Shown here piece by piece: positions 1 through 17,381 of a stretch of 64,000 nt of DNA (position 1 is its first letter; each line of letters begins with the position of its first letter). The stretch covers positions 1 through 64,000 of the IMG/VR virus record IMGVR_UViG_3300018080_000158. One strand, written 5' to 3'. The DNA comes from a virus. Below the pieces are notes generated by a model. It had not been told where the DNA came from. It worked only from the letters and a program-made list of their open reading frames with translations, and made no database searches. A program made the translations under genes and the position numbers.

Positions 1-184
1 AGTAAAAGATTCCTATAGAGGCATTGCCGCTGTTTGCCCTTATCAACCCCATTGATGGAAGGACGGCAATGCCCCGCAAGCAGTCTTTTACTGCTCAATA
101 CATTTCGGACCTCCTTTCTCCTATAGGCGATAGCTTACAGCCAATCGCCCAAATTACTCATCTGTTCTGGTGGCAGCAAATTGC

Positions 185-427
185 CTATTCGGTAGCCAAT
201 GCCTCTTCTTCAGTTAGACACAGCAAGTCGGCGGTATCTTCCGTCAAGTAGTCATATGACCAAAGCCCGTGCTTGATAGGGACTTTAAATCTCTCAGGGC
301 TCCTCTTCCATGTTTTAACCTTACCGTTTACTCTCCAACGCTGAGGCGAACCGTCCGCATTTCTATTAGAAATGTGATATAACTCTTGCCCGTAAGATAG
401 ACCTAACGCTTGGTCTCTTGCTATCAT
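185..427 (-). CDS. small early phage hypothetical protein
   Basis: ORF with GGAGGTGTAGTAAATG start module; WRVNGKVKTWK motif typical of small phage proteins. Confidence 0.7.
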   Translation of the reverse strand: MIARDQALGLSYGQELYHISNRNADGSPQRWRVNGKVKTWKRSPERFKVPIKHGLWSYDYLTEDTADLLCLTEEEALATE

Positions 428-644
428 TTACTACACCTCCTTTATCTATCTTTGCTTGAATGTCTTGCAGTAAAGGGAAGGCCAAAGCTGATGATACCTT
501 ATTACTCTTCCAGAGATCAACTACTTCATCCCTGAAAGAAATCAACTCCGAATAAGATACAAGACAGCCCAGCCTATCCCTCAAAGTAAATAATACATCT
601 GCCTGGCTCACGCTACATCTCCTCTCTACTCCCCCAAGACTTAC

Positions 645-869
645 TTAATTGACATTGTGATATGCTCTAAGACAATCGATGGAGCAAAACTTTCCATTGA
701 TAAGATTACTACAATTGGTGCTGATACAGCCGTCAGGCTCTATTGAGTAAACAAACAAATGACCCTTGCGATTTTGTCCGCACCAGTCACATGTACTTTT
801 AGTCCTAACACACTGCCTCCAAATTTCCTCACGGGCATAAGGGTCTCGTGATATAAAAACCTTACTCAT
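645..869 (-). CDS. Cys-rich hypothetical protein (CDWC...FCSIDC zinc finger)
   Basis: GAGGTG RBS before ATG at 869; two CxxC-type pairs. Confidence 0.6.
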   Translation of the reverse strand: MSKVFISRDPYAREEIWRQCVRTKSTCDWCGQNRKGHLFVYSIEPDGCISTNCSNLINGKFCSIDCLRAYHNVN

Positions 870-915
870 AATTCTCACCTCACTTTCAATCGTCTGAAAG
901 TTGTTTTGCTATAAA

Positions 916-1311
916 CTAGTCTGGAATACGCTTGCGCAGATCCCAATTATAAACCTCGTGCAAGTAGTCTTTCAGATATGAGTACTTGCCAGCGAATCTA
1001 CCAGTAATAGTAATGTTAGCGCCAAAAGCCAGTGAAGGAGTAACGGATACCGTGTATGGAATCCATCCATCATAATACCCATTTTCGTCCATCGCATGAA
1101 ACTCGTTATAAAACACTAGCCTATTTGAATGACTCTTTTCATAGTCAAAAACATATTCAGAATCAATCCCAGAGCCGTGAGGAAAATAAGTTTTTATCAA
1201 TGACTCAATAGTCTCCTCGTTCTTATCTTCCCATAGTTTATTACAAGTATCGGCGCATCTTTTTTTGGCATCGACTAATATTGCCAATTTAGCATACAGT
1301 CTCTCTTTCAT
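916..1311 (-). CDS. conserved phage hypothetical protein
   Basis: PHGSGID and FHAMDENGYYDGW motifs; GGAGGTGTAGTAAATG start. Confidence 0.7.
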   Translation of the reverse strand: MKERLYAKLAILVDAKKRCADTCNKLWEDKNEETIESLIKTYFPHGSGIDSEYVFDYEKSHSNRLVFYNEFHAMDENGYYDGWIPYTVSVTPSLAFGANITITGRFAGKYSYLKDYLHEVYNWDLRKRIPD

Positions 1312-1314
1312 TTA

Positions 1315-1674
1315 CTACACCTCCTCAATTGCTACATTCTCGACAATAAGAAACACTTTGCCGTCTCTATTGTAACAAACCTCAGCCCCTTCTATATGCC
1401 AAGATCTGTTATAGATTGCCAGTTGACGCTTTTTTCCATTTTCGGTAGTTACTGCTTTTCTCTCTCGAAGGTACTGTTGCCCAGAATCGACCAAGTGGCC
1501 ATCCTTCCACATACGTCTTTTCACAAAGTCAAATCCATCAGCATTGAGTATCTTCTTCACTTTGTGCAGTAGTAAAGACTCCCCTGAAGCATTTACTACA
1601 CCATAACATTTCTTGTCGCCTTTCTCCCTTTCTACTAAACACAGTCCCTTCTCTTGGTTTAAAAATACCTTCAT
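1315..1674 (-). CDS. phage hypothetical protein
   Basis: ORF in the early array; probable start MKVFLN after AAGGAG. Confidence 0.6.
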   Translation of the reverse strand: MKVFLNQEKGLCLVEREKGDKKCYGVVNASGESLLLHKVKKILNADGFDFVKRRMWKDGHLVDSGQQYLRERKAVTTENGKKRQLAIYNRSWHIEGAEVCYNRDGKVFLIVENVAIEEV

Positions 1675-1676
1675 TA

Positions 1677-1922
1677 TTATCTCCTTCCTGCTATTCCTAT
1701 AGCAATTTGAATCTTTTCCCAAGGAGAGGGCAAGTCATATACTCTAGGCCTTTTCTCCAGACAGATCCAAACTGAATACGGATCTAAGGGGTTTTTCCAC
1801 GAACAACCAGGGCATCTTGGGTATACAGAACCCCAATGATTCGTTCCAAAACTCTTGATCAGACCGCACCTTGTGCATCTATACTTCTTATATGAATACT
1901 TTCCAGTTGTAGGTTTGCTCAT
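1677..1922 (-). CDS. zinc-ribbon hypothetical protein
   Basis: CTRC...CPGC; strong RBS. Confidence 0.6.
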   Translation of the reverse strand: MSKPTTGKYSYKKYRCTRCGLIKSFGTNHWGSVYPRCPGCSWKNPLDPYSVWICLEKRPRVYDLPSPWEKIQIAIGIAGRR

Positions 1923-1963
1923 TTACTACACCTCCTTTAATTTTTCCTGGTGGCAGCTCCCAA

Positions 1964-2341
1964 CTACTTCACCTCTATAAGGCCACTCTTTATGTAGCTC
2001 CTCAAGACGCTACATTTTACTACACGTCCAGGCCAAGCTTCGCTATACCTGGCCGCAACGGCTGCTTGAAACTCATCGACATTAGCAAATTCAGGGCTGA
2101 AGTCGATAGCGTCAATGTACTTTACATTCACTCGAAGGGATTCAGTATTAAATTGATCCTCAAATAAGTAATCAGTCTCAACGTCAAGCCACGCACCCGC
2201 AGCTTCACCCATGCCTAGAGCCCAAGACCTTCCAAGACCCTCCAAGATAACTTCCGCACGAGCTTCCTTTTCAGCTTGTGTCTTTCCCAATTGACCACGA
2301 ACGTAATGACTCCACCAATCTTTTGATATTCTAATTCTCAT
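1964..2341 (-). CDS. phage hypothetical protein
   Basis: AAGGAGG RBS; WLDVETDYLFEDQFNT. Confidence 0.65.
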   Translation of the reverse strand: MRIRISKDWWSHYVRGQLGKTQAEKEARAEVILEGLGRSWALGMGEAAGAWLDVETDYLFEDQFNTESLRVNVKYIDAIDFSPEFANVDEFQAAVAARYSEAWPGRVVKCSVLRSYIKSGLIEVK

Positions 2342-2436
2342 AATTTTATCCTCCTTTATTTGTAGTAATAGTTCAAGGATGGGCAGGGATGTAGTAATTC
2401 CCTGCCCTACATTGAAGCATTACTCGGTGAGAAGTA

Positions 2437-2790
2437 TTACTCGGTGAACATCTGCGGGAGTGTAGGTCTTATCCTTTTCAATTCCTCCATATATTTGATC
2501 TCTTCATCAATTCCAAGACAAGCTACTATGTAGTCAAATAGAGGACATTTGACTAGATACCCATTTGCCAATCGAATTACTACATTCCCTTCACAGAGCC
2601 CTACTACAACGGCATCGGCAGGCAGTGAAGAAATAACACCTGCAAAGCTTCCATCATACTTTACTACGAAACGTGGAATTTGCTCAAAGTGTGTCTTCTT
2701 TATCACTTTGACCTTTACTGCTTCCCCTGAGTCAATTACTTCTCTGTAGCCCCCAGCCTTCGCCGTCTTTACTGCTCTTTTCTTAGCCAT
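2437..2790 (-). CDS. hypothetical protein
   Basis: AGGAGGAG RBS; fits the early array. Confidence 0.6.
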   Translation of the reverse strand: MAKKRAVKTAKAGGYREVIDSGEAVKVKVIKKTHFEQIPRFVVKYDGSFAGVISSLPADAVVVGLCEGNVVIRLANGYLVKCPLFDYIVACLGIDEEIKYMEELKRIRPTLPQMFTE

Positions 2791-2853
2791 AACACTCCTC
2801 CTTATATAAGCTTTGGCCCTCTAAATGGTGACGGGGCTCAGAAGCTATTAAAA

Positions 2854-3135
2854 TCAAATACACGGAGGACGCTCTAAATACCCAGCGTCCTCGCCCAAGG
2901 CTTCAATAATCCTTTTACTAGTCTTACAGGCATACTCATTCCTCAGATCATAATTTCCAGTGTCAAAATTTTCAGCCCACCTCTTTAGACAAGCAGCAAA
3001 GAGACCGAAAAGCCCTTGCTGTAACGTCCTGTGTAAAGAACAAACACCGTCAACAAAGCCTTCGGTGTCAGGAGTGAAGTTATTAGCAAACGTACTCAGT
3101 TCCTTAACTAATTCCTCGGTAGTAGGTCTGTTCAT
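2854..3135 (-). CDS. conserved phage hypothetical protein
   Basis: HRTLQQ...YDLRNE motif; AAGGAGG RBS. Confidence 0.65.
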   Translation of the reverse strand: MNRPTTEELVKELSTFANNFTPDTEGFVDGVCSLHRTLQQGLFGLFAACLKRWAENFDTGNYDLRNEYACKTSKRIIEALGEDAGYLERPPCI

Positions 3136-3155
3136 CGTTTCGTCCTCCTTTCCTT

Positions 3156-3452
3156 CTACAGGTAAGATTCACTCCACTGCTTAAACAACTTCTTTGCCTT
3201 TTTCTCATCCCCAGTTATACGAGCTACCATTGCTCGATACCAAATCGACTTAGAGGGGATTCCTTGCCGTTTGGCTCCGTACTTGAATGACTCCAATCTA
3301 GCGAGTAAAACCTTCTCGCCGTTCTTGAACCATTCGTGATAACCCTTACCGCTACCATGATAAAATTTTATCCCTGAACATTTGTCAGTGTCTATGATGA
3401 AACCATGATTTCCATGAAACCCGCAGTGGGGGCATGTAGTAATAGCTGGCAT
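3156..3452 (-). CDS. hypothetical protein with N-terminal CPHC
   Basis: GGAGGCGAAGTAAATG start module. Confidence 0.55.
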   Translation of the reverse strand: MPAITTCPHCGFHGNHGFIIDTDKCSGIKFYHGSGKGYHEWFKNGEKVLLARLESFKYGAKRQGIPSKSIWYRAMVARITGDEKKAKKLFKQWSESYL

Positions 3453-3617
3453 TTACTTCGCCTCCTTTCCAGTTAGCCTTTTGATTATCTCCTTTGCCTC
3501 TTTCTTAGAGGGGCCTCCAAGAATCAAAGCCCCTACATCACTAAGCTCTAAAGTACGCCTAGCAATTTTCAATTGGTGTTTCTCAAATACTGATAGTGAT
3601 AATTTCCTTTTGCTCAT
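3453..3617 (-). CDS. 54-aa hypothetical protein (MSKRKLSLSVFEKHQLKIARRTL...GGPSKKEA...), absent from the ORF track
   Basis: GGAGGTGCAGTAAATG start; stop abuts the next ATG. Confidence 0.65.
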   Translation of the reverse strand: MSKRKLSLSVFEKHQLKIARRTLELSDVGALILGGPSKKEAKEIIKRLTGKEAK

Positions 3618-3653
3618 TTACTGCACCTCCTTTTTTTACTGCTTCAGCCATTC

Positions 3654-3720
3654 CTGTCCGCATGTAGGGATTTGAACCCTACTATCACCCGGCCTCCTGG
3701 CCACTCCTGGTAGCGGACAG
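3654..3720 (-). ncRNA. tRNA-like element with T-arm and acceptor-like stem
   Basis: minus strand CTGTCCGC...GCGGACAG stem enclosing GTAGGG-TTCAAAT-CCCTAC; no canonical anticodon arm or CCA. Confidence 0.45.
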
Positions 3721-3776
3721 CAAGGGCCAAAGCCCATTGCCTTATACTTACTCCTTTCTAGCGGTGGCAGCAAAAA

Positions 3777-4145
3777 CTAACCACCGCATTCACACAGTTC
3801 AGAAGCATACGCAGGATGGTATAAACTCCCAGCTTGCCAGTCCTGCCAGTTACCCCCGTCTATAGTAATCCTATGCCTACCCTTTGGGAGATAACCGGAA
3901 ATTACTACTGCTTCAGGGGCTACCTCAAAAAGGGCATCAAAAAAATCCCCATGTACATGCCAGCAAGCAGCAGCAATTCTACGTCCAGCAACGCCTCTAC
4001 GTGCTCCTGGCCCTCTACTGCTTTTCACTGTTAGAGTAAACGAGTTTGCTTCCAAAGTCTTAAAGCGAATGTTCCCATCGTACTTCTCATTGACTTTGTG
4101 CAAAGCACTTTCTAGATCCCCACTTGTACAATTTTTATATTTCAT
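3777..4145 (-). CDS. conserved phage hypothetical protein
   Basis: AACWHVHGDFF motif; GGAGGTGAGTAAATG start. Confidence 0.65.
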   Translation of the reverse strand: MKYKNCTSGDLESALHKVNEKYDGNIRFKTLEANSFTLTVKSSRGPGARRGVAGRRIAAACWHVHGDFFDALFEVAPEAVVISGYLPKGRHRITIDGGNWQDWQAGSLYHPAYASELCECGG

Positions 4146-4478
4146 TTACTCACCTCCTTCGCTATCTATATCCAACAGGGTTTGATCATCAAGCTGTCCG
4201 TACTCGGCATAGTACAAACAGTCTTGGCATACCTCATAACAATAAGCCTGTTTGGTTTTGGGGTTCCATCCTGAAGCATGATAACGATCACCGCCAAGAC
4301 GGGAACCACAACACTCGCAAGCCCTCCAAGAGAAGTAAGGTTCAAATCCTACTTCTTCTTCGCAGATAGGACATACAGGCTCTTCTTCAGATCCAGACTG
4401 TGAGAGATTAGTAATTCCTTCAGTCTCAAAAAAGGCTTTTACCTTTCTCTCATACTCAGAGTACTCGGACTTGTTCAT
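4146..4478 (-). CDS. Cys-rich hypothetical protein
   Basis: FSWRACECCGSRLGGDR, CQDC. Confidence 0.65.
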   Translation of the reverse strand: MNKSEYSEYERKVKAFFETEGITNLSQSGSEEEPVCPICEEEVGFEPYFSWRACECCGSRLGGDRYHASGWNPKTKQAYCYEVCQDCLYYAEYGQLDDQTLLDIDSEGGE

Positions 4479-4482
4479 TTAC

Positions 4483-4998
4483 TCACCTCCCTAAACGCTT
4501 GCCGGTAATAAAATCGATCCAGCGAATGGCAGCTTCTCTTGAAGTAAAAGAAGCCACAATTTTTTTGTCTGCTCTCACATCGTGAGTATACCCTTTATCT
4601 CTGGAAACAGAAGGCCAGCGAATTGTATACTCTGCCTGTGAGTAGTTAGGATGCCGGTATACTTCACGACCGCCAACAAACAGCCTCACAATACTAGTTA
4701 CTAGTATTGCACCTCCTCCTGTACTTCTGGTATTGTGCAGTAAAATGGGGATGTGAATTGGCCCCATACTTCTACCTATCTGACCCGTTACGTCGAACTC
4801 CTCTCCCCAGTCTCGCCCGGTTTTACTATCACCATAAAACAACCGGACTCTAAGGCCATGCACCCTGGCCCTTTCCAACTCTGTCAATAATTTTGGATCG
4901 GTACTAGCAGGGTAGTACGTACCGCTTTTGTGCCGCACGTCTATGAATGTGCGCCCTGTAGGCCCTATCCATTTATGGATACGTTTTGGTGTTGTCAT
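4483..4998 (-). CDS. conserved hypothetical protein
   Basis: RVRLFYGD...TGRDW...IGRSMG...RSTGGGAIL motif set. Confidence 0.7.
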   Translation of the reverse strand: MTTPKRIHKWIGPTGRTFIDVRHKSGTYYPASTDPKLLTELERARVHGLRVRLFYGDSKTGRDWGEEFDVTGQIGRSMGPIHIPILLHNTRSTGGGAILVTSIVRLFVGGREVYRHPNYSQAEYTIRWPSVSRDKGYTHDVRADKKIVASFTSREAAIRWIDFITGKRLGR

Positions 4999-5027
4999 TT
5001 ACTACACCTCCTTTTTTACTGCTTCAG

Positions 5028-5258
5028 CTACACGTTCCATCCTAACTCTTGAGTCACTAAAGTATGGTACGCAGTCCTTTTTATTTGTGGAATCTTTCCG
5101 CAAAGCTTTCCAGGACCTCCATAAAAAGGATAGTAACCAAAACAGTCTGCTAGTACTTCATTAGAAACATTCCCTTTAAACCATGCCCAGCGAATCCATG
5201 AGAATTCATCTAAATCCCTTTTGCCTTCTTTTAAAATTACAGTATGTTTTTCTTTCAT
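5028..5258 (-). CDS. hypothetical protein
   Basis: AGGAGAG RBS; YGGPGK. Confidence 0.55.
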   Translation of the reverse strand: MKEKHTVILKEGKRDLDEFSWIRWAWFKGNVSNEVLADCFGYYPFYGGPGKLCGKIPQIKRTAYHTLVTQELGWNV

Positions 5259-5289
5259 CTTCTCTCTCCTTTCTTCGTACTACCTACCT

Positions 5290-5586
5290 TTATGATATGT
5301 AGGTAGCAATTTTATATTGTTCTCCGTCTTTACTCAATTTAATAAGCACACCAGAGAAAAACGAATCCGATGAGTAACCATGCCATTCACTTTCAAATGG
5401 ATGATTGCCTTCAAGCCTTAAAAAGTCTGAAATATGATACCAACAATGCCGGTAGTAAATCCACCCATCATAGTCAGCACCGTCCTTATCCAAATGGGCA
5501 TACTCTTCTTTCTTTACTTTCTCAGGTACTTCATACCCATACTTGAAATCCTTCCACTTATAATCAGTAATAATCTCTAAACTCAT
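5290..5586 (-). CDS. conserved phage hypothetical protein, first gene of the early array
   Basis: WHGYSSDSFFSGVLIKL motif; GGAAGTGAAGTAAATG start. Confidence 0.7.
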   Translation of the reverse strand: MSLEIITDYKWKDFKYGYEVPEKVKKEEYAHLDKDGADYDGWIYYRHCWYHISDFLRLEGNHPFESEWHGYSSDSFFSGVLIKLSKDGEQYKIATYIS

Positions 5587-5632
5587 TTACTTCACTTCCT
5601 TTCTTTATTTGGATTGCCTGCAATATCTACAA

Positions 5633-5756
5633 GGTGAGATACTGGGCGCTCAGGTCCAGTCAGCCCTCCAACCTCGCACCTAAATCGGCCCCTATGGCCG
5701 GTGAGGAAATCTTACTTACTGTCCAGGAGGAACGAGGTCAAGTACTCCTGGACACC
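5633..5756. ncRNA. structured RNA motif, copy 1 of a tandem pair
   Basis: multi-stem fold whose stems co-vary with copy 2; strand ambiguous. Confidence 0.65.
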
Positions 5757-5803
5757 CCATATACATTGTAGCAATCCATGTCTCCTTGAATTACTCTCAC
5801 AGT

Positions 5804-5926
5804 GGCGGGATATCGGGCGCTAAGGTCCGATCAGCCCTCTAACTCCGCACCTAAGCTGGTAGTAATACCAGTGAGGAAATCCTGCTTGCCGTCCAGGGGG
5901 AACGGAGTCAAGTACCCCTGAACACC
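5804..5926. ncRNA. structured RNA motif, copy 2 of a tandem pair
   Basis: ~171-bp periodic repeat with compensatory substitutions. Confidence 0.65.
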
Positions 5927-6741
5927 ACTTGTAGTAATTCATTATATAATAGATCCAACCCGGTCCATCCTACACAGTCGGACAGACTAGGCAAGACCTA
6001 CAATATCTCATATGTCGGTCTCCGTGACAATTACTGATCTTGGCCCTCACGGTACGCCTCAATGTAGTATTTTAAGTGTGCCGCTACCTATGTAGTAATT
6101 ACTACCACCAACCTTTCGGTAATTTGTCGTCCCTACTCTCGTGGTGGCAGCAAAAACTACTTGCAGCTATTCAACCATTTACTCTTGATTGACCATTACG
6201 GTTTACTCTTCAATGGTGTTTTACTACATTGGCACAGATAGCCTTCGAGCTATCATCTAGCAGCCCTTTCAGCTCTTTCAAGCTGTTTATCGCCTCTGTC
6301 GGTTGTCGTCCCTACTTCGTTTTACTACCTGGTGGCAGCAAAAACTTTCGGTACATACGCATCAATCAGGTTTACTACTTCCTTCTAACAGAGCCCGGCA
6401 AACTGAAGGCCGTTTGACTTGTTAGGTTACTTGCCTTTTTTTGTCTATGGGATGTTGAAGGTCCCAGCGATGAGCGCCTCGGCTAAACCTGATTTGTTCA
6501 GCTCCAATTGAGTGCAATAAAAAGTTTTACTAATCACTGCACTGTTGGACTGTCTTATGTCTGCGTGATTTGAAGCGAATCAATTAGGCGGGAACGAGCG
6601 GAACGTAAGCCGTCCCGCTCTCTACTTTCCTTTTGTGGGCTTTATCCTTGCTTGGTTTGGCTTCCGGCCATTCCGCTTCTGTTTTTTCCCCGTTCGCTGG
6701 CCTCTGGCCCATGCCGGTTGCCTTGCTTCCGCTTAGTGCCT

Positions 6742-6753
6742 TTTTCAAAGAGC
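6742..6753 (-). promoter_or_regulatory. boxA-like antitermination element
   Basis: minus strand GCTCTTTGAAAA about 20 nt downstream of the early promoter. Confidence 0.55.
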
Positions 6754-6778
6754 TTGTTTTTTCTTACCTTTCAATTAT

Positions 6779-6840
6779 AAGGTATAACAGATAAGCCCTT
6801 TTGTCAAGGTTTTTTGGTCGTTTTTTTCGTTTTTTCTGCC
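6779..6840 (-). promoter_or_regulatory. early sigma70-type promoter with upstream A-tracts
   Basis: TTGACA (6807-6802), 17 bp, TACCTT (TATAAT adjacent); phased A-tracts upstream. Confidence 0.65.
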
Positions 6841-7045
6841 CCAAAAACTATAACAGATACAAATACTTACAAAAAATCGTACTTTTTTCTCTTTCCAAGC
6901 CCTAAAAACGGCCTAAAAAACGGCCAAATCTTAAGGAGGTGAAGTCGTCTATTCCGACCTTTAATTACAATTTTGTAATTCATGTAATTAGACCTTGACA
7001 AAAAAGCTTGCCTACTTTCTCACGTCTGAAACCAGATCCAAGGCC

Positions 7046-7074
7046 TTGACAACAAAGTCAGCCTTTGCTATAAA
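7046..7074 (+). promoter_or_regulatory. sigma70-type promoter for the plus-strand island
   Basis: TTGACA-17bp-TATAAA. Confidence 0.65.
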
Positions 7075-7344
7075 TGAGTCTATCTGGAATCCAAACAGGA
7101 GAGGAGTCTATAAAATGGGGGCTTTTCACAATCCTACCAACAGCCACAAATCAAAGGCCCTGAAATTTGAAATAGTGAGTCTTGAACGGAGAAAAAAATT
7201 TTGTATCAAAGATCTTTCTGCCAGCTCCCATGCGTATAGCATTTAGCTAGTACCATTCATTATGCCCCAGGCCCATTTAGAAAGTGCTAACTTACATCCT
7301 TATCGCACAAACAATAAGGACTTCAACGAGGAGTAGTAAAACAC

Positions 7345-7563
7345 ATGAAACCAAAAGACCAGATCAGCTTAAAAGACTTCGAGCACTACACAGGAAAGAT
7401 AATTCTCGCTTCTACAAGCAGAAGCAAGGCCAGGCTATATGCCACAATACAACCTGCCAGCAGTAACTCCATATCCTATGAGGTATGGACTAATGATGAA
7501 ATTCGTTATGTGTTCAAGGACTTTATTTCAGCCATTGGCTTGTATAACTCTCTATGCGCCTGA
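7345..7563 (+). CDS. hypothetical protein
   Basis: GAGGAG RBS; downstream of the plus-strand promoter. Confidence 0.55.
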   Translation: MKPKDQISLKDFEHYTGKIILASTSRSKARLYATIQPASSNSISYEVWTNDEIRYVFKDFISAIGLYNSLCA

Positions 7564-7700
7564 AAGGGTGAGAAAAGGGATACAGGTTAAGGAGAATTTA
7601 AAAGCATACCCTAAACATGGCGGTATCTTTAAAGTTGGCGATACTATTGAAATTCAGTGAAGCAAGTTATTTCCTGAGTTAGACTTAAAGGAGGTTTAAA

Positions 7701-7979
7701 GTGTTGAATAGGTATTTACGGTTCTCAAAACTCGGCTTTGTGGTATGGCCAGGCCATACTCCATCAAACCAAAATGCTAATATTCAACATAGTCAAATGG
7801 CTAATGCCATTAAAGCAACCAAATCAGAAGAAGAAATAGGCAAGTTAATTTCAGCAGGCTTTTGCCATATACTAGGAGAGCAAACTGTATGCTTCGGCTT
7901 TTCAATGACTACAAACCTAAAAAGCCTGAAAGGAGACTCGGAGCTACTCACAAGGCAATTAAATCTTCAACAACAATAA
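7701..7979 (+). CDS. phage hypothetical protein
   Basis: AAGGAGG RBS; H...ISAGFC...CFGFS.T.NLKS pattern common in phage proteins. Confidence 0.65.
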   Translation: MLNRYLRFSKLGFVVWPGHTPSNQNANIQHSQMANAIKATKSEEEIGKLISAGFCHILGEQTVCFGFSMTTNLKSLKGDSELLTRQLNLQQQ

Positions 7980-8213
7980 TCAATACAAGTATTAGAAGTA
8001 GAAGGGTAAGGTGGCCATGTATCGCCTTGCCTTTTCTTTTGCTTCCTTGCCTCAATTACTAATCATCCCCCGGTGGCAGCTAACCGATTCACCAGGCCTG
8101 CTAAGAAGTACTAATCACTTCTCGAATTTTTCCCAGAATTTTTTAACATACCTATACAGACCATCCTATTACGATCTTCAGGTCTTAGTTTAACTTGGTC
8201 AGATTAGATACAC

Positions 8214-8326
8214 ATAGGCTGTAATTTTTGATCAGAATTTTATTGCTCTCTTAAAGGACACATAGGTTCAATTTTTTGGTCAGAATTTAAATACGTATAA
8301 GTTGTAATTTTTGGTCAGAATTTTAC
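8214..8326. repeat. three ~29-bp direct repeats (ATAgGyTgtAATTTTTGrTCAGAATTT)
   Basis: copies start at about 8214, 8262 and 8298. Confidence 0.7.
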
Positions 8327-8339
8327 AGACCCCGCAGGC

Positions 8340-9480
8340 AGTAGTATACTATTAGTAATTTGAGATTTTCGGACCCCACCCCCCAGGTAGTAATTAGTAA
8401 TTAGTATTCTCTGAGTATACTCACCTTGTCCTCAGTTAGTATACTCGCCTAGTAATTAGTATTAGCAGAGTCATTGCATGACCATATGCTTAGATTACTA
8501 TGAGTATACTTACTCGCCTGCCAGGACAGGTCGCACCTGCGACCTAGTCATTGACTGATTACTAATCACTCGCCCTATGCAATCACATATCCAATTGCTC
8601 GCCCAGTACTCCTAGTATACTAATTACTAATTACTCATTTCCAATTACTCGAACCAATCAGTTTTACTATTAGTAATAATTACTCGCAAGGGGACATTCT
8701 ATCTGACATATAACATCTGACATATAACATCTGACATCTAACACTCTACCTATACCCTTCTATCTATACTATCTGACATAGGACATATACTAGTCTATCT
8801 ACTATTTACTATCTATGCCATGGACTATCTATGCTGTTTGGCATCTACTACTCTATATATGATAGGGCATCCTACCTGACATTTACTATCTATGCTGTCA
8901 AGCGTCTGCTGCCTACTACATCCTATCCGACATCTGTTATAGAATGCCTGCTCTCTCCAGCGCACAGTATACTGTATAAAGCCTTTACCGGGCCTTGCAT
9001 CATACTGCTTAATATCTGGCATATACTCTTCTCTCTAACTCCTTTAACACTGCTCTGCATACTACCTTCTCTCCTGCATACCTCTATACTACACCTCTCC
9101 TGACTATCTTTGGCTTTCCTACTTATACTTATAGCTTTCTTTGCTTTCGGTACTTCATTCAGTTGGTTTAGGACTTATTGGCAGGTAGTACTATATACCT
9201 CTGCATACCTATCCTATCGATACAGTACTATTTCCTTCTGCCTACTACCGATCACCTATGCTATACACCTTACTGCATACGTAGCAAAGGTAATACTGGC
9301 AAGCATCTGCTACAGATCTGTCTTTGCCTGAGCATACTCTATGAGCAAGTACTTATAGATGCGATTCTATAGGAAGCAACACTGTCGATACATACCACCA
9401 ATCAGTCTGCTATGAGGGACCTTCAGTACTGCATACGTAGGATCTTAGAGGAGACATACCGTTGAGGATATAAGGGAAGG
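8340..9480. other. non-coding low-complexity zone (AGTAATTAGT/ATTACTC clusters, ATCTGACAT repeats, C-run at ~8374-8384)
   Basis: dense short repeats; ORFs here lack RBS and have biased composition. Confidence 0.55.
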
Positions 9481-9525
9481 GCTGTGCTGCCACCGAGGAG
9501 TAATGAGTAAACAAGGGGCTTTGGC

Positions 9526-9753
9526 CTAATGCCCATCTGGTGTAGGCACTTCAGTTGAGATACCTACTTTTATAGTATGTGGGCTATCGTCTGCTTTGCC
9601 GTAAGTATAATTGACTAGCCTTACAAGATGAATATCGCTAACCACCAGGCCCGTCTTTGCTTCATATACACCAATGGCCTTTAGTATTTTCTGTTTGAGT
9701 ATCCTGGTTTCTGTTTTAATCTGGGAAAGAGTGATTGCTTCTTCTTTGTCCAT
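9526..9753 (-). CDS. small protein, paralogue of 9771..9968
   Basis: YEAKTGLVVSDI vs FEEATGLTVFEI. Confidence 0.65.
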   Translation of the reverse strand: MDKEEAITLSQIKTETRILKQKILKAIGVYEAKTGLVVSDIHLVRLVNYTYGKADDSPHTIKVGISTEVPTPDGH

Positions 9754-9770
9754 GGTATGTTGTCTCCTTT

Positions 9771-9968
9771 TTAAAGGATAGGGAAGCGAATCAAAATGTC
9801 TACATCAGCAGTGGTTATATTTTCTTCCTCGGTATGGATAGGGTTTATTTCAAAAACAGTCAACCCGGTAGCCTCTTCAAATGAATAGATGAGATTTAAG
9901 ATATCATGCCGAAGCATGGCCACTTTGCATTTCACTTCTTCTAGCCTTTCAACTTTATCTTTGGACAT
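9771..9968 (-). CDS. small protein, paralogue of 9526..9753
   Basis: shared (F/Y)E-x-x-TGL-x-V motif. Confidence 0.65.
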   Translation of the reverse strand: MSKDKVERLEEVKCKVAMLRHDILNLIYSFEEATGLTVFEINPIHTEEENITTADVDILIRFPIL

Positions 9969-10598
9969 TGCAGCAACCCCTTTCAGACGATAGAAAGTAA
10001 GTAACGTCTTTAGTCAAGACAAAAGAGTATATAAACCATAACAGCACAAGCCAATATACTGCACATTAATACAGTAATGGCAATAGTGGCAAGCTCAACC
10101 GCTCTAGACAGCCTATGCTTGATTAGATTTAATATCACATGGTCGGGTATGTCGTTATCGTCTAGCCCTGTAAAAGCCTTGAAGGCTTTAGCCAATTCGC
10201 TCATTAACTTATTACTCTGATCATGGATAATAGTATTGTACAAATGATAGCTCCACGACCCCTCCCCCATTATAGGGGAGGGGTTTTTTAAATTACTCAA
10301 TAAATGAGATCCTTAATTTTATAGGACAAGATAAGGGGAATCCCTTGCGTTATACCATAGCATAGGCCAGTCCTTTAGCTGTCTAAGGCTCTCGTTTTGT
10401 TAAATGGCTTTCCTCGAACCAAGAACCTCCTTCTTCGGTTACAACATAATATTGCTTGCCCCCGCTATCAAACGCCAACACAGTTATAAGACCAGCAACG
10501 CCAGAAAGAGTATTAACTTTTTCATTCAATCCGAATTCAAAATCCACTCTAGTTATCACTTATTCTCACTCCCTTCTTATTCCCTGCTTTATTTTCTT

Positions 10599-11105
10599 TC
10601 ATCTGTGCTTTTTACTTACATTCAAAACTGCACTGCTATAGTCCTTGTTCTTAGCAATCCAATCGTCAACGCTCCGAGACAGGAAAAACAGGAGCTGTGA
10701 ATTGATGGTTCTAAATTCTATATCAGCTATTTTCTTGATCTGAGGATAAAGTATACTGTCTTTGGGGAATGTCAAATGAAACTTGTCAGCTTTGATTGCT
10801 TCATTGTAGCAAACGATACAATACCCTGGAGGAGGAAACCCCTTCTTTACTCTGACAGGGCGCTTGCCGCACTTTGAGCATAGGGGCCTTTCTTCCGATT
10901 TGCTTCTCTCATCCTTTGGACCTTCTTTCCTGCAAGTCTCCTCCGTTACTTCATTTTGCCAGTTTGCTAAATACTCACAATCTTCATAGAGTCCTTCATC
11001 GTCGCACTTGTGACTATGAACACACTTAGCACAAGGAGCATCGAAGGCATCAGTCTCTTTGGGGTCCAAGGATCTTGGCAGTTTATTTTTGCTTTGCTTC
11101 TTCAT
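10599..11105 (-). CDS. Cys-rich protein with C-terminal Arc/ribbon-helix-helix-like domain
   Basis: several CxxC; LTFP...IKKIADIEFRTINSQLLFFL. Confidence 0.5.
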   Translation of the reverse strand: MKKQSKNKLPRSLDPKETDAFDAPCAKCVHSHKCDDEGLYEDCEYLANWQNEVTEETCRKEGPKDERSKSEERPLCSKCGKRPVRVKKGFPPPGYCIVCYNEAIKADKFHLTFPKDSILYPQIKKIADIEFRTINSQLLFFLSRSVDDWIAKNKDYSSAVLNVSKKHR

Positions 11106-11228
11106 CTTTTTTACTTAGACTGCATTCGTATTTTTCCTCAGCTACTTGGTAGTAAGATCTTCAAGAGTAGTTGTAATAATATCATGAATCGCCATTGCTA
11201 AGTTTCCAACCTCTACAGCGTTTTACTC

Positions 11229-11606
11229 CTATTCGTCTGATATATTTCTAGTGAGAAGATATTCATGCAAGTAAGCCATAGCGTTAAAAATGACTCCGCA
11301 AAGAGCATCGTTTAAACTCTCAACGGCATAACTACCCAAACCTCTATGGTGCAGCCAAACATCTACAAAATGCCGCAAGAATGACTTCATGATTTGACTG
11401 CGAGGAATTCCTTTTTGCCAATTGTCAGAGTCCCGTAATGATCCATCTTCTAGGCGTCTATGCTTGTCCAAATATTTTGCATAGTGCAGCAAAACGAGAG
11501 GACTTAAAAATCCTTCAAAGTCAAGCTTACCTTCGTCGCTATTCCTGCTCGCTCCTGTAGCAAATACTCTTCTTGCTTCTTTTTCTGCATGTCCCACTAT
11601 AGACAT
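11229..11606 (-). CDS. dATP/dGTP diphosphohydrolase N-terminal-like (DUF5664) protein
   Basis: FATGASR...GKLDF...DNWQKGIP...SFLRH...FNAM motifs. Confidence 0.75.
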   Translation of the reverse strand: MSIVGHAEKEARRVFATGASRNSDEGKLDFEGFLSPLVLLHYAKYLDKHRRLEDGSLRDSDNWQKGIPRSQIMKSFLRHFVDVWLHHRGLGSYAVESLNDALCGVIFNAMAYLHEYLLTRNISDE

Positions 11607-11866
11607 TATAGCTCTCCTTTGTATCTAGACTTTAAATCAGATCTAAGTCGATTTCTTGCAAGCCAGCCCAACCTCCGGCCCAAACCATATTTCCTATCCA
11701 AACGTTTATCAATATTCCAAATACGCCTTCGAGCGGAATACTTCATACGCTCCCAAATGCAAGGCTCGTCAAATGGGCTAAGCCCTAAAGGCGGTTTGAG
11801 TAAATAGACATCCCCATATTTCTTTCTAATGTACCACATAGCCAATAGCTTCAGAAATAAAGTCAT
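11606..11866 (-). CDS. basic hypothetical protein
   Basis: coupled ORF with RBS. Confidence 0.5.
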   Translation of the reverse strand: MTLFLKLLAMWYIRKKYGDVYLLKPPLGLSPFDEPCIWERMKYSARRRIWNIDKRLDRKYGLGRRLGWLARNRLRSDLKSRYKGEL

Positions 11867-12042
11867 TTTACTCCTTCTACCGATCCACGGTTTTCAGATA
11901 GCAATCTCATTCGTCGTGCAGTGGAATATTTGGAGGGACCATAAATTTATAAATATGATCTTTGTGACTATGGCACGAGCAATTGGATTGCTCACATTTC
12001 TTGCCCAGCACAAAAACCCTCAATTCATCTTTTGGCCTATTC

Positions 12043-12333
12043 TCATTTTGCATGTTTACTTCCCCCTCCTTCCTGGTTAGCTATTTCAATTAAAAAATCC
12101 CCATGGCACCGTTTAGGAGCACAAAAGCATACAAGATCTTTCCCTCTTAGCTCCTGTTTGAATTTTTCTAGTAGTAATGGTTTGGAGCGAAGCATTTGCT
12201 CATACTTGTCACAAACAGCATCTCTGTCTCCATCTATTCCTATTACAAAAGGATTGCCATAGGGAGATCCTCTGCCGATGTAAATTGCTCCAGGAGGGGC
12301 TGTGTTGTGGTACTTATTATGGACCTTTGGCAT
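12043..12333 (-). CDS. DUF4326 domain protein
   Basis: IYIGRGSPYGNPF...LRGKDLVCFCAPKRCHGD. Confidence 0.9.
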   Translation of the reverse strand: MPKVHNKYHNTAPPGAIYIGRGSPYGNPFVIGIDGDRDAVCDKYEQMLRSKPLLLEKFKQELRGKDLVCFCAPKRCHGDFLIEIANQEGGGSKHAK

Positions 12334-12376
12334 GTAAGCAATACCTCCTTAGCTGTTGAACAGTCTACTAAATACA

Positions 12377-12889
12377 TTAAATGTACCCAATATGTCGCCA
12401 ATCCTCAAGGATTGCGACTGTCCTTCTGTCTACTGTATTTTTAATAGCGTTTCTTACATAGGATGTACCAGAGGGATCAGTTATCATTTTTGGGCCAGCG
12501 TATCCAACACCAGCATCGTTTTGATCAAAGACAGGATCTTGAGAAGAAAAACTTTTGCCAAATCGTAAAAGACGAATTGGTTTTTCTTTCTCCTTGCTTT
12601 TTACTTCAAATTTTAACTTTGGCAGTGGCTTGTCTCTGAAAAGAGCGTTGAGTATAGTTTGAATAGCTGTGTGGCAGGTATAGCAAAACCATAGATCGTT
12701 ACCGTCCGAAGTTCTATAAGAAAAACGATGAGCCAGGCAATCGCTCTCGTAATCTACAAACTCACCAGGATTGCAAATCTGTTTCCAATGACCCGTGCCC
12801 GTATATACCAATCCGCAGCAATTAGGATGCACATACTCCAGATAAAAGTTGCATTTCTTATTGAAGCAAAATGGAAGATTTTTACTCAC
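12377..12889 (-). CDS. Cys-rich hypothetical protein carrying an IRLLRF motif
   Basis: AAGGAG RBS; KPIRLLRF. Confidence 0.6.
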   Translation of the reverse strand: MSKNLPFCFNKKCNFYLEYVHPNCCGLVYTGTGHWKQICNPGEFVDYESDCLAHRFSYRTSDGNDLWFCYTCHTAIQTILNALFRDKPLPKLKFEVKSKEKEKPIRLLRFGKSFSSQDPVFDQNDAGVGYAGPKMITDPSGTSYVRNAIKNTVDRRTVAILEDWRHIGYI

Positions 12890-12940
12890 GGCTTCATCTC
12901 CTTAGCTGTTGAGTAATATACTAAGTCCTAATGCCAAGAT

Positions 12941-13408
12941 CTAAATGTCTCGCAGCAAGCCATTTCCTCTCCGTACTGATAGGAGGTGGCTCGCTTGGCT
13001 TCTGTAGGCAAATATTGGAGCCTTGCAGTCTTCGAGTATTTTAATGGCTTCAGGTCTTATTATCGGAAAGGAGCTATTGTCGTGAAAGAAAGCCTTCTCA
13101 GCCATGCCCCTAGATTTGATTTTCCCCTTCTCTATCAATTCCTCAACAGAGAACCTTTCAGCGTCTTGGTCCGAAACAATACATACACCTCTGGTGTGGA
13201 TGTGTGTCTCCAGGTCCACTGCAAAAGTGACGAATACTCTAGGGCGGTGTTTATCATCCTCATAGAAGTAATGAGCGTATCTTAAACGGCTTCTACACCA
13301 CTTAAGCCACCTATCATGTTCCTTCTTTTCCTTACGTTTACTCATTGATCTTTTACTCATCTTTATTGCTCCTTTCGCATAGTCGCTTAGTGGAGTGTAA
13401 TACTGCAC
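12941..13408 (-). CDS. hypothetical protein
   Basis: long ORF in the operon; real start probably MSKR. Confidence 0.55.
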   Translation of the reverse strand: MQYYTPLSDYAKGAIKMSKRSMSKRKEKKEHDRWLKWCRSRLRYAHYFYEDDKHRPRVFVTFAVDLETHIHTRGVCIVSDQDAERFSVEELIEKGKIKSRGMAEKAFFHDNSSFPIIRPEAIKILEDCKAPIFAYRSQASHLLSVRRGNGLLRDI

Positions 13409-13743
13409 AAATCGACCAGCTCACGTATACTACGTTTCACACCAACAGCATTCGGATCAACAAAAGAGTTCAATAACAAGTAGAATATCTTTGCTGCCTT
13501 TTCTGCTTCTTCAAGATTGGCTCCTTTAATAGAACAGTGTACCTTATCATCCGAGCCTATAAAAACAGTTTCCAGCCTGGCAGCTACGCCAAAGCCTAGC
13601 AGCACATCATTAAATAGGCTATTTCTTTGTGAGAGATCCAAATCAGGCTCGAAGCAAATAGTCCAAATCTTATTTTCGAGTTCCTTCTTTTTCTCCTCTT
13701 GACTCATATACTCTCTCCGATCTAAAGTGCAATTGCTACCCAA
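13387..13743 (-). CDS. hypothetical protein
   Basis: ORF in the operon. Confidence 0.5.
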   Translation of the reverse strand: MGSNCTLDRREYMSQEEKKKELENKIWTICFEPDLDLSQRNSLFNDVLLGFGVAARLETVFIGSDDKVHCSIKGANLEEAEKAAKIFYLLLNSFVDPNAVGVKRSIRELVDLCSITLH

Positions 13744-13999
13744 CTATTACTTATATGTCTTAACCAGATCGGGATTCGGGCATATAAACTCATTTTCTTC
13801 TAAACCCCAACGTGTTGATCCTTGATGGCGGTTTTTACCATTTAGTTCACCAGCGATAATTCTCGTACACCAACAAACCGCCGAATCGTCAACTATAGAC
13901 GGGTCAATAGCTTTGGCCTGCTTTCGCACCCACGCACAAGTGCGGCTTTTGCTTGCTTTTCTTCGTCCATTGCTTTACTAACGTTTACTAACGTGCAGT

Positions 14000-14194
14000 T
14001 TACTTACTTTTGTCAATGCGAAACCGCTGGTTATTTTTTAACACTAAATCCGCAATCTCACACGATTTTATTTCTGGTTCAAATGATTCATAACCAACAA
14101 GTTTAGCCAATATATTCATGCCCTCATAATATTCATTTGAGTGATGTAAAAGGAAAATCGCCCTCTTGATTAACTGCCGCTCTTTCTTAGTCAC
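14000..14194 (-). CDS. hypothetical protein
   Basis: AGGTG RBS; ORF in the operon. Confidence 0.5.
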   Translation of the reverse strand: MTKKERQLIKRAIFLLHHSNEYYEGMNILAKLVGYESFEPEIKSCEIADLVLKNNQRFRIDKSK

Positions 14195-14205
14195 AAGTCA
14201 CCTAA

Positions 14206-15290: not shown

Positions 15291-15433
15291 AATTGCTCCA
15301 TGGGAGGATAAGGCCAGGTGTCAGCGAGGCGTTGTCGCTACAACAAGGGCTGTCAAGCTTTTTATTCACCATTTCCGACACCTGGCCTAAAATATTGTTG
15401 ATTACTACTAATCTAGACTTCCAATGATTATAG

Positions 15434-15730: not shown

Positions 15731-15803
15731 GATTAATTACCTCCTTATCCCTACAAGTTAGTAAACAGATATGGACATAGTCTAAACTTCATCACCTCCT
15801 TAT

Positions 15804-17272: not shown

Positions 17273-17381
17273 CTTCTACTTATAAATCGCAAAAGCCTTC
17301 GGCCTGTCCTATTGCCTACAAAACCTAACGTCTGCTTCACTTGCACCGCCAAGTACAAGCTCTGGTTATGGCCGGTTCTTA

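What the first reader, a model, noticed from the sequence alone, without database searches (positions are those of the whole stretch)
5633..5926. Tandem pair of an unrecognised, co-varying pseudoknotted RNA in the early leader
Seen: two ~124-nt copies 171 bp apart, with most differences compensated inside stems. Copy 1 vs copy 2: closing stem GGTGAGAT/ATCTTACT vs GGCGGGAT/ATCCTGCT; hairpin ACTGG..CCAGT vs ATCGG..CCGAT; hairpin ATCGGCC..GGCCGGT vs GCTGGTA..TACCAGT; terminal hairpin GTCCAGGAG/CTCCTGGAC vs GTCCAGGGG/CCCCTGAAC. A long-range pairing also co-varies: ACCTCG(5671)/CGAGGT(5733) vs ACTCCG(5842)/CGGAGT(5903), which indicates a pseudoknot or kissing loop. Linkers CAGCCCTC, CACCTAA, GAGGAA, GAAC and CAAGTA are invariant, and a second AGGT/ACCT pairing is possible. 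I could not fit it to hammerhead, twister, pistol, HDV, c-di-GMP or cobalamin consensus. Inference: a new ribozyme, tandem riboswitch, antiterminator or protein-sponge RNA just upstream of the first early gene. G-U wobbles favour the plus strand for the stems and the minus strand for the pseudoknot, so the strand is unresolved.
Basis: partly seen in the sequence, partly recalled or inferred. Interest (0 to 1): 0.82.

Follow-up and report, generated by a model that had tools for sequence, protein, structure and literature searches.

The report
Twin folded RNAs in uncultured phage
Two neighbouring, diverged copies of an intricately folded RNA of about 160 bases, matching no catalogued RNA family, lie in a gene-free gap of an uncultured 80-kb phage. 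The fold is well supported, but nothing is known about expression or function, and no other genome searched has it.

Summary
The two copies differ at 30 of 121 core positions. Of these, 23 lie in helices, and all but one helix pair stays intact. Nine pairs changed on both sides, spread over four stems and a loop-to-junction pseudoknot.

The strand is resolved. The plus strand gives 85 Watson-Crick, 9 G-U and 1 mismatch. The minus strand gives 9 A-C mismatches. The pseudoknot is all Watson-Crick and says nothing about strand. The RNA is therefore antisense to the neighbouring gene and is not a sense leader element.

No conserved ORF, Rfam match or homologue turned up. I searched IMG/VR, JGI metagenomes and GTDB genomes by pattern scans, 84 related or gene-sharing phage records, and T4 rnaC/rnaD. 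A near-identical strain occurs in two other metagenomes.

Best reading: a new orphan family of independently folding, plus-sense phage RNAs whose conserved unpaired core binds a protein or ligand. Function and expression are untested. Other agents of this scan noted similar twin RNAs in other phages, but none shares sequence with this one.

The parts
5611..5777 (+). Unit A (167 nt): the complete folding unit, closed by outer stem P0
   Evidence: The MFE fold of 5590-6130(+) encloses copy 1 in a flanking stem. Helix-by-helix tally. CM R1 scores 158 bits over 5631-5760.
5788..5940 (+). Unit B (153 nt): the paralogous folding unit, closed by its own P0
   Evidence: CM R1 scores 153 bits over 5802-5930.
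5611..5624 (+). P0 5' strand of unit A. The core 5611-5617 pairs with 5771-5777; the extension 5619-5624 pairs with 5765-5770. The unit B equivalent is 5788-5795 with 5933-5940.
   Evidence: GGAUUGC/GCAAUCC versus GAAUUAC/GUAAUUC: two G-C to A-U double changes.
5633..5716 (+). Three-way-junction domain of unit A. P1 is 5633-5640/5709-5716, P2 is 5641-5647/5654-5660, P3 is 5684-5690/5696-5702. The invariant joiners are CAGCCCUCYA, CACCUAA and GAGGAA.
   Evidence: The joiners show 1 change in 23 nt (J2/3) and 0 in 6 nt (J3/1).
5804..5886 (+). Three-way-junction domain of unit B. P1 is 5804-5811/5879-5886, P2 is 5812-5818/5825-5831, P3 is 5855-5861/5866-5872 with a GUAA loop.
5721..5753 (+). P4 hairpin of unit A (5721-5729/5745-5753) with a 15-nt loop, GAA-CGAGGU-CAAGUA
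5891..5923 (+). P4 hairpin of unit B (5891-5899/5915-5923). It has one C-A mismatch. The loop is GAA-CGGAGU-CAAGUA.
5671..5676 (+). Pseudoknot 5' strand of unit A (ACCUCG), pairing with 5733-5738 (CGAGGU) in the P4 loop. In unit B, 5842-5847 (ACUCCG) pairs with 5903-5908 (CGGAGU).
   Evidence: Two adjacent double changes, all Watson-Crick. The only two differences in the 15-nt P4 loop are exactly these complements.
5290..5586 (-). Adjacent 98-aa gene on the opposite strand (context, not part of the RNA). Its start codon lies 25 nt from P0 of unit A.
   Evidence: ORF. It has 47 homologues at 42-99% identity. Neither the 160 loci that carry homologues nor the 25 of their whole viral records scanned hold the RNA.

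Best explanation
The locus encodes two paralogous, independently folding, plus-sense structured non-coding RNAs of a previously undescribed family.

Shown:
- Each unit has an outer stem P0.
- P0 closes a junction that holds a P1/P2/P3 three-way-junction domain and a P4 hairpin.
- The 15-nt loop of P4 pairs with six bases of the long P2-P3 joiner, forming a pseudoknot.
- About 45 unpaired bases are almost invariant between the copies, while the helices have diverged through compensatory transitions.

Inferred:
- The two units are co-transcribed rightward. Only 10 nt separate them, which leaves no room for a separate promoter for unit B.
- Each unit folds on its own, because the swapped pseudoknot bases make the two units mutually non-complementary.
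- The pseudoknot docks P4 onto the conserved junction core, and this core is a binding pocket or surface.

I commit to this mechanism: a stable, trans-acting RNA that binds a protein (a phage or host factor, acting as decoy or RNP scaffold) or a small ligand, rather than a cis-acting leader element. Because it lies antisense to the untranslated stretch in front of the leftward operon, an added antisense effect is possible.
For: Fold:
- 9 double-compensated pairs in 5 helices, and 98.6% of cells paired. Slid controls give 0-1 such pairs, and 1 of 500 shuffles reaches the observed values.
- Two more compensated pairs in P0.
- Random placement of the same substitutions reaches the observed pairing in 37 of 200,000 trials.
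- The alternative helix CCUCGC/GUGAGG, which the MFE fold uses in copy 1, is broken by the same substitutions that preserve the pseudoknot (read from the columns of the alignment).

Strand:
- Plus gives 85 Watson-Crick, 9 G-U and 1 mismatch. Minus gives 85, 1 and 9. All nine minus-strand mismatches are A-C, the signature of G-U on the other strand.
- Three of the G-U positions are conserved in both copies, next to pairs that covary.

Non-coding:
- A 1-nt indel in the P3 loop shifts the only shared plus frame.
- By my own reading of the sequence, the minus-strand ORF at 5820-5942 in copy 2 has no intact counterpart in copy 1, where the same frame meets an early stop.
- The nucleotide sequence stays conserved across these breaks.

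Conserved core: 23 of 30 differences lie in helices, and the joiners and P4-loop flanks are invariant.

Other:
- G+C is 0.56-0.57 in the element, against 0.42 for the window.
- No plus-strand ORF with a ribosome-binding site lies within about 1.4 kb downstream. This argues against a cis-regulatory role on that strand.
Against: - Only two sequences support the fold, both from one genome. No homologue was found, so no independent covariation exists.
- No convincing plus-strand promoter lies upstream of 5611, and no terminator follows 5940. Promoter-like hits in the region are at chance level: 4 found against 5.2 expected.
- The genomic context favours minus-strand transcription. Nearly all genes are on the minus strand. 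A CCTTGACAA -35 box on the minus strand at 6801-6809, or a weaker site at 6030-6002, would send transcripts through the units in antisense.
- Nothing identifies a binding partner. The trans-acting binder role is inferred from anatomy alone.
Confidence: 0.45

Rival explanations
1. Cis-antisense regulator. The plus-sense RNA exists mainly to pair with the long 5' untranslated leader, and possibly the ribosome-binding site, of the leftward operon that starts at 5586. This would trigger degradation or block translation, as the sar, oop and c4-type phage antisense RNAs do. The structure would give stability and loops for the initial kissing contact.
For: The fold is on the strand opposite to the adjacent operon. 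The units fill almost all the space in front of the gene, ending 25 nt from its start codon. A perfect TATAAT on the plus strand at 5559-5564 (read) would start an RNA that also covers the ribosome-binding site and start codon in antisense.
Against: Antisense action needs no intramolecular pseudoknot and no 45 invariant unpaired bases. That TATAAT has no -35 box at a workable spacing and was not picked up by the scan. Transcription of the leader through the units is not shown. A tandem duplication is not explained.
Confidence: 0.2
2. Minus-sense leader element. The functional RNA is the complement: two tandem cis-regulatory domains (a tandem riboswitch or a put-like antiterminator) in the 5' leader of the leftward operon.
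For: The position is ideal: a promoter-like site at 6030-6002(-), then unit B, unit A, and 25 nt later the ATG at 5586. The operon needs an upstream promoter, and the CCTTGACAA box at 6801-6809(-) points this way. HK022 putL and putR are likewise paralogous structured RNAs downstream of early promoters (PMC9378689).
Against: On the minus strand 9 of 95 pair cells are A-C mismatches. Two of these are conserved inside P1 and one inside P2, in both copies, next to covarying pairs. Only 1 G-U occurs. The minus-strand folds are no better than shuffles, with z of -0.7 and -1.1, against -3.5 for plus copy 1. Promoter hits are at chance level. put RNAs are about 70 nt with two stem-loops, a different architecture.
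Confidence: 0.1
3. New self-cleaving ribozyme pair. Each unit cuts itself, so the tandem pair releases a unit-length RNA of about 175 nt that could be circularised.
For: It has a complex pseudoknotted fold with an invariant unpaired core. The head-to-tail tandem arrangement with a 171-177 nt period resembles tandem ribozyme arrays. Self-cleaving ribozymes are common in phages (my own knowledge, not tested here).
Against: Nothing matches the hammerhead, twister, twister-sister, pistol, hatchet, HDV, hairpin, VS or glmS models even at E<=10 on a 351-nt search. No cleavage-site signature can be named. The prior for a new ribozyme class is low.
Confidence: 0.08
4. Self-assembling RNA. The two paralogs would form two orthogonal assemblies.
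For: Covariation cannot tell intramolecular pairing from homo-intermolecular pairing. The swapped bases (CU/AG versus UC/GA) make unit A and unit B mutually non-complementary, as expected for orthogonal self-assembly. pRNA likewise combines a three-way junction with complementary loops that mediate self-association (PMC5066667; PMC4201828). Natural RNA-only assemblies occur in phage-associated RNAs (PMC12286853).
Against: The intramolecular pseudoknot is topologically unproblematic, with a 15-nt loop and a 23-nt joiner. The Rfam pRNA, GOLLD and ROOL models do not match. The phage has a conventional large terminase and a family-A DNA polymerase, not a phi29-type system.
Confidence: 0.07
5. DNA-level or selfish element. 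This would be a single-stranded-DNA fold at an origin or priming site, or a duplicated miniature inverted-repeat element whose terminal repeats are P0.
For: P0 resembles short terminal inverted repeats. G-T pairs are tolerated in single-stranded DNA. The region is a gene-poor zone of about 4 kb.
Against: There are only two copies in the 79.6-kb record, and they are adjacent. A covarying pseudoknot and an invariant unpaired core are not expected for inverted-repeat elements. No transposase or replication initiator lies next to it.
Confidence: 0.04

Closest known systems
Phage T4 small stable RNAs rnaC and rnaD (species 1 and 2)
   Same: Two small structured phage RNAs (139 and 119 nt) encoded head-to-tail a few bases apart. 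Their function is still unknown (my own knowledge).
   Different: The T4 pair lies in the tRNA cluster, and rnaC carries a tRNA-like T-arm. The window has no tRNA and no T-arm motif. CM R1 finds nothing in the T4 region. The T4 pair is on the same strand as its neighbours.
phi29-family prohead RNA (pRNA, Rfam RF00044)
   Same: A phage RNA of similar size (174 nt) built on a three-way junction plus a separate 3' hairpin domain. Two loops pair by Watson-Crick complementarity (PMC5066667).
   Different: No Rfam match. pRNA is single-copy and belongs to roughly 20-kb phi29-like phages (my own knowledge). This is a roughly 100-kb phage with a large terminase, a family-A polymerase and a DnaB-like helicase. 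In pRNA both interlocking loops lie in the first domain and pair with about 2-4 bases. Here a junction strand pairs with the loop of the 3' hairpin over 6 bases.
HK022 putL/putR antiterminator RNAs
   Same: Paralogous structured RNAs in a phage early region. The two copies share sequence and structure and act without a dedicated protein factor (PMC9378689).
   Different: put is about 70 nt, has two stem-loops and no pseudoknot, and lies on the strand of the operon it controls, one copy per operon. Here each unit has 6 helices in about 160 nt, the copies are in tandem, and they lie on the strand opposite to the neighbouring operon.
Tandem riboswitch aptamers (for example glycine) and kissing-loop riboswitches (for example cobalamin)
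   Same: Complexity comparable to an aptamer: a multi-helix junction, a long-range loop pairing, an invariant unpaired core, and a tandem arrangement.
   Different: No Rfam riboswitch model matches. There is no downstream ORF or expression platform on the folding strand.
Type III toxin-antitoxin RNA antitoxins (ToxI, CptI)
   Same: Tandemly repeated pseudoknotted phage or defence RNAs next to a small protein gene.
   Different: ToxI-type repeats are 34-45 nt, directly abutting, several per array, and on the same strand directly upstream of the toxin gene (my own knowledge). Here there are two roughly 160-nt units on the opposite strand. The 160 loci carrying homologues of the neighbouring gene lack the RNA.

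Membership tests
Any Rfam 15 family (4227 models) | A covariance-model score at or near the family's gathering threshold | tested here: not met
   No hits at gathering thresholds over the 64-kb window. At E<=10 only chance snoRNA and miRNA fragments appear, at 15-20 bits against thresholds of 60-110.
phi29 pRNA | Match to RF00044 | tested here: not met
   no hit on either strand.
phi29 pRNA | Three-way junction plus two loops that are mutually complementary and pair between molecules | tested here: inconclusive
   A three-way junction and complementary loop and junction strands are present. Whether they pair within or between molecules cannot be told from sequence.
phi29 pRNA | Encoded by a phi29-like phage with a pRNA-dependent packaging motor | tested here: not met
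   The phage has a 699-aa large terminase, a PBSX-type portal and a family-A polymerase. Its relatives are 95-100 kb.
HK022 put RNA | About 70 nt, two stem-loops, on the sense strand downstream of an early promoter of the operon it controls | tested here: not met
   The units are 153-167 nt with 6 helices and a pseudoknot. Pairing is on the strand opposite to the adjacent operon. Definition from PMC9378689.
T4 rnaC/rnaD | Sequence and structure similarity; location in a tRNA cluster; a tRNA-like T-arm | tested here: not met
   R1 finds nothing on the T4 region with filters off: best 7.4 bits, elsewhere in the locus. The window has no tRNA. A T-arm is seen in the rnaC fold but not here.
Tandem riboswitch | An aptamer followed on the same strand by an expression platform and a regulated ORF | tested here: not met
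   Plus strand: no credible ORF for about 1.4 kb and no terminator-like site. Minus strand: an ORF follows, but 9 A-C mismatches break the helices.
Known self-cleaving ribozyme classes | Match to the class consensus or covariance model | tested here: not met
   No hit at E<=10 in a 351-nt search with lax filters.
Self-cleaving ribozyme (new class) | Site-specific self-cleavage | not testable with these tools
   Needs in vitro transcription and cleavage assays.
Type III TA antitoxin RNA | Short (34-45 nt) abutting repeats on the same strand directly upstream of an endoribonuclease toxin gene | tested here: not met
   The period is 171-177 nt with 2 units on the opposite strand. The neighbouring 98-aa protein has no Pfam match, and its homologues elsewhere lack the RNA.

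The most novel reading that the evidence does not exclude
The units are a new class of catalytic or self-assembling RNA. Either it is a self-cleaving ribozyme whose tandem copies release, and perhaps circularise, a roughly 175-nt RNA, or it is an RNA that forms homo-oligomers through the covarying loop-junction pairing, with the two paralogs forming orthogonal assemblies.
Probability: 0.13. Interest if true: 0.85.

Novelty: new variant of a known kind. Interest (0 to 1): 0.55.

Why it matters
RNAs with this degree of architecture are rare outside riboswitches, ribozymes and RNP scaffolds. This one has six helices including a pseudoknot, and an invariant unpaired core of about 45 bases. Each new class has tended to reveal new biochemistry.

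The natural pair of paralogs provides a built-in compensatory-mutation experiment, which makes the fold model unusually secure for an orphan. Because the two units together span only about 330 bases, the locus can be synthesised and tested directly for structure, self-cleavage, oligomerisation and binding partners, without culturing the phage.

Its value is limited for now. The RNA is known from one uncultured phage lineage, with no evidence of expression and no homologues.

Tried and rejected
Homologue searches, all negative:
- Exact-pattern scans with stems left free and joiners fixed. CAGCCCTC-N-AAC-NNN-GCACCTAA in IMG/VR. CAGCCCTC-N9-CACCTAA-N15-25-GTGAGGAAA in IMG/VR, JGI metagenomes and GTDB genome contigs. 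GAGGAAA-N16-24-GAA-N6-CAAGTA-N7-11-ACACC in IMG/VR and GTDB contigs; this gave 23 hits, none confirmed by CM R1. GGAACG-NN-GTCAAGTAC gave 109 chance hits; none of the 99 loci scanned was confirmed.
- blastn of the 1.4-kb gap against 50,697 phage records: no match.
- CM R1 on 160 loci around homologues of the neighbouring 98-aa gene.
- CM R1 on the whole records of 34 portal relatives and 50 further records.
- CM R1 with filters off on the accessory arms of three near-complete relatives.
- CM R1 on the T4 rnaC/rnaD region.

The relatives (portal 45-56% identical, roughly 95-100 kb) share only the core from 18 to 49 kb. The 1-18 kb arm that holds the RNA has almost no counterpart in them.

Single-protein search for related loci with the 171-aa ORF and with the polymerase found no close relative.

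Sequencing runs: no RNA holder was listed. The contigs of two other metagenomes carry a near-identical strain. Unit A and the start of unit B (5603-5860) are 100% identical there, so they give no variation to test. The stretch 5861-6630 had no cover in those runs.

Considered and dropped:
- Protein-coding duplicate (frames are not conserved).
- tRNA or tmRNA.
Both are invariant, so they cannot be tested, and the first competes with the top of P2.
- Sliding-window MFE z-scores, which were too noisy to settle the strand or to delimit further RNAs.
- Host inference from cluster names, which gave nothing.

Full report
**What is there**

The window is the first 64 kb of a 79.6-kb IMG/VR virus record that CheckV rates 72% complete. 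Nearly all its genes are on the minus strand. A stretch with no ORF of 80 or more codons runs from 5587 to 6994. It is part of a gene-poor zone of about 4 kb that reaches to about 9.5 kb.

At the left edge of this gap lie two direct copies, 80% identical in the repeat finder and 87% in a trimmed alignment. The whole record holds only these two.

**The fold**

I scored a 37-pair structure (P1, P2, P3, P4 and the loop-junction pseudoknot) on the two-row alignment.

| Measure | Result |
|---|---|
| Cells paired | 98.6% |
| Pairs changed on both sides | 9, at least one in every helix |
| Same count after sliding the 3' partners by 1-3 columns | 0-1 |
| Shuffles reaching the observed values | 1 of 500 |
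| Core columns that differ | 30 of 121 |
| Differences that lie in helices | 23 of 30 |
| Random placements of the 29 substitutions that leave 35 or more of 37 pairs intact | 37 of 200,000 |

Of the seven unpaired differences, three are in the P3 loop. The joiners CAGCCCUCYA, CACCUAA and GAGGAA, and the P4-loop flanks GAA and CAAGUA, are essentially invariant.

The only two differences in the 15-nt P4 loop are the exact complements of the two adjacent differences in the junction strand: ACCUCG/CGAGGU against ACUCCG/CGGAGU. The same substitutions weaken a competing helix, CCUCGC/GUGAGG, that the energy model prefers in copy 1 (columns). The pseudoknot is therefore the pairing under selection.

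**A missed outer stem**

Folding 5590-6130 as one plus-strand RNA encloses each copy in a flanking stem. These stems are GGAUUGC/GCAAUCC (5611-5617 with 5771-5777, plus a 6-bp extension) and GAAUUACU/AGUAAUUC (5788-5795 with 5933-5940). They differ by two more G-C to A-U double changes.

The units are therefore 5611-5777 and 5788-5940, with 10 nt between them. Each is a P0-closed junction that holds the P1/P2/P3 domain and the P4 hairpin.

**Strand**

| Strand | Watson-Crick | G-U | Mismatch |
|---|---|---|---|
| Plus | 85 | 9 | 1 |
| Minus | 85 | 1 | 9 |

The tally covers all helices of both units. All nine minus-strand mismatches are A-C, which is what G-U on the other strand looks like. Three of the G-U positions (two in P1, one in P2) are conserved in both copies, next to pairs that covary. 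The pseudoknot is entirely Watson-Crick and gives no information. The one position that favours the minus strand is a C-A in P4 of copy 2. I put the plus strand at about 85%.

**Not coding**

The only plus frame open in both copies is shifted by a 1-nt indel in the P3 loop. By my own reading of the sequence, the minus ORF at 5820-5942 in copy 2 meets an early stop in the same frame in copy 1. Nucleotide conservation continues across these frame breaks.

**Context**

The fold lies on the strand opposite to the adjacent 98-aa gene (5290-5586), whose start codon is 25 nt from P0 of unit A.

Three exact CCTTGACAA boxes cluster at 6801-6809(-), 6993-7001(+) and 7044-7052(+). They resemble the repeated TTGACA-type early promoters of a relative. 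The leftward box, or a weaker site at 6030-6002(-), would transcribe the units in antisense on the way to the operon.

No convincing plus-strand promoter or terminator flanks the units, and promoter-like hits here are at chance level. Pairing therefore says plus, while context suggests minus-strand transcription. This tension is unresolved, and it is why an antisense role is my second choice.

**Relatives and homologues**

There is no Rfam match at gathering thresholds or at E<=10, even on a 351-nt search, and no blastn match in 50,697 phage records.

All pattern scans of IMG/VR, JGI metagenomes and GTDB genome contigs, with joiners fixed and stems free, gave nothing or only chance hits that the covariance model rejected.

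The neighbouring 98-aa gene belongs to a family spread over many phages. None of the 160 loci around its homologues holds the RNA.

Portal searches define a clade of roughly 95-100-kb uncultured phages at 45-56% identity. CM searches found no match in:
- 34 whole records of these relatives;
- 50 further records, of more distant portal relatives and of phages that carry the 98-aa gene;
- the accessory arms of three near-complete relatives, searched with filters off.

Synteny covers only 18-49 kb. The arm that carries the RNA is unique to this phage.

A near-identical strain is present in another sediment metagenome and a seawater metagenome.

**What it most likely is**

Shown: a plus-sense, six-helix, pseudoknotted fold, conserved between two old paralogs, with an invariant unpaired core.

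Inferred:
- The two units are co-transcribed.
- Each folds independently, because the swapped pseudoknot bases make the units orthogonal.
- The pseudoknot docks P4 on the junction core.
- The core is a binding site.

With no gene downstream on that strand, I favour a stable trans-acting RNA that binds a protein or small ligand (0.45).

Rivals:

| Reading | Confidence |
|---|---|
| Cis-antisense control of the leftward operon's leader | 0.20 |
| Minus-sense leader riboswitch or antiterminator, contradicted by the A-C pattern | 0.10 |
| New self-cleaving ribozyme pair | 0.08 |
| DNA-level or mobile element | 0.04 |

**Comparison with known systems**

The closest analogies are the following. Membership fails for each on at least one tested defining feature.
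- T4 rnaC/rnaD: tandem small stable RNAs of unknown function.
- phi29 pRNA: a three-way junction with complementary loops.
- HK022 put RNAs: paralogous structured RNAs of an early region.

**Verdict**

This is a real feature and a new orphan RNA family of riboswitch- or ribozyme-like complexity. The strand is largely resolved. Function and expression are unknown. Interest is moderate to high for RNA specialists, limited by the single lineage and the lack of homologues. Other agents of this scan have reported comparable twin RNAs in other phages. None shares sequence words with this one.

Noticed in passing
window 169, 1949, 3763, 6143, 6331, 8072 (+); 9486 (-): The 9-mer GGTGGCAGC occurs 10 times against 0.3 expected. 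Read on the minus strand it is GCUGCCACC, often preceded by AGUUUUU. At 1949 and 3763 it sits roughly 10-25 nt upstream of a GGAG-type ribosome site and the ATG of a minus-strand gene; at 169 an ATG follows within a few bases. This looks like a phage-specific promoter or processing signal rather than a Chi-like DNA signal. Two copies in the gap (6143, 6331) have no gene behind them.
   Followed up: partly
window 6801-6809 (-), 6993-7001 (+), 7044-7052 (+): Three exact CCTTGACAA boxes lie within 250 bp, out of only 5 in the window. One faces left and two face right. 7047-7075 reads TTGACA-N17-TATAAA. This is probably a divergent early promoter cluster.
   Followed up: partly
G009 (IMGVR_UViG_3300037246_002669), about 29.7-30.5 kb and 75-87 kb: A relative carries about ten dispersed copies of an 80-140-nt repeat. 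On the reverse strand it reads TTGACA-N17-TAGATT, followed by a leader, a ribosome site and an ATG, and it is often preceded by a hairpin-plus-T-run terminator. This is a repeated early-promoter cassette.
   Followed up: partly
window 7175-7318: In the near-identical strain of two other metagenomes, this 144-nt stretch is replaced by 9 other bases (AAGGGCCTT), and 6985-7174 differs at 21 positions. The 83-codon ORF at 6995-7246 is therefore unlikely to be a gene.
   Followed up: no
window 6040-6240 and 6400-6680, minus strand: 160-nt windows fold much better than shuffles on the minus strand (z down to -4.5 and -4.6). Further structured elements may lie in the gap. A short repeat, TTGTCGTCCCTACT...TGGTGGCAGCAAAAACT, occurs twice (6124-6158 and 6303-6346).
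   Followed up: no
window 1-18000 versus relatives G006, G009, G012, G029: The replication and packaging core (18-49 kb) is syntenic with roughly 95-100-kb relatives at 30-55% protein identity. Of the roughly 45 ORFs in the first 18 kb, only one has a counterpart. This is a hypervariable accessory arm.
   Followed up: partly
Portal homologues P0050, P0090, P0098, P0099, P0114: Several relatives have portal proteins of 910-980 aa that carry a PF14528 domain in addition to the portal domain. This suggests an intein or homing-endonuclease insertion in the portal gene.
   Followed up: no
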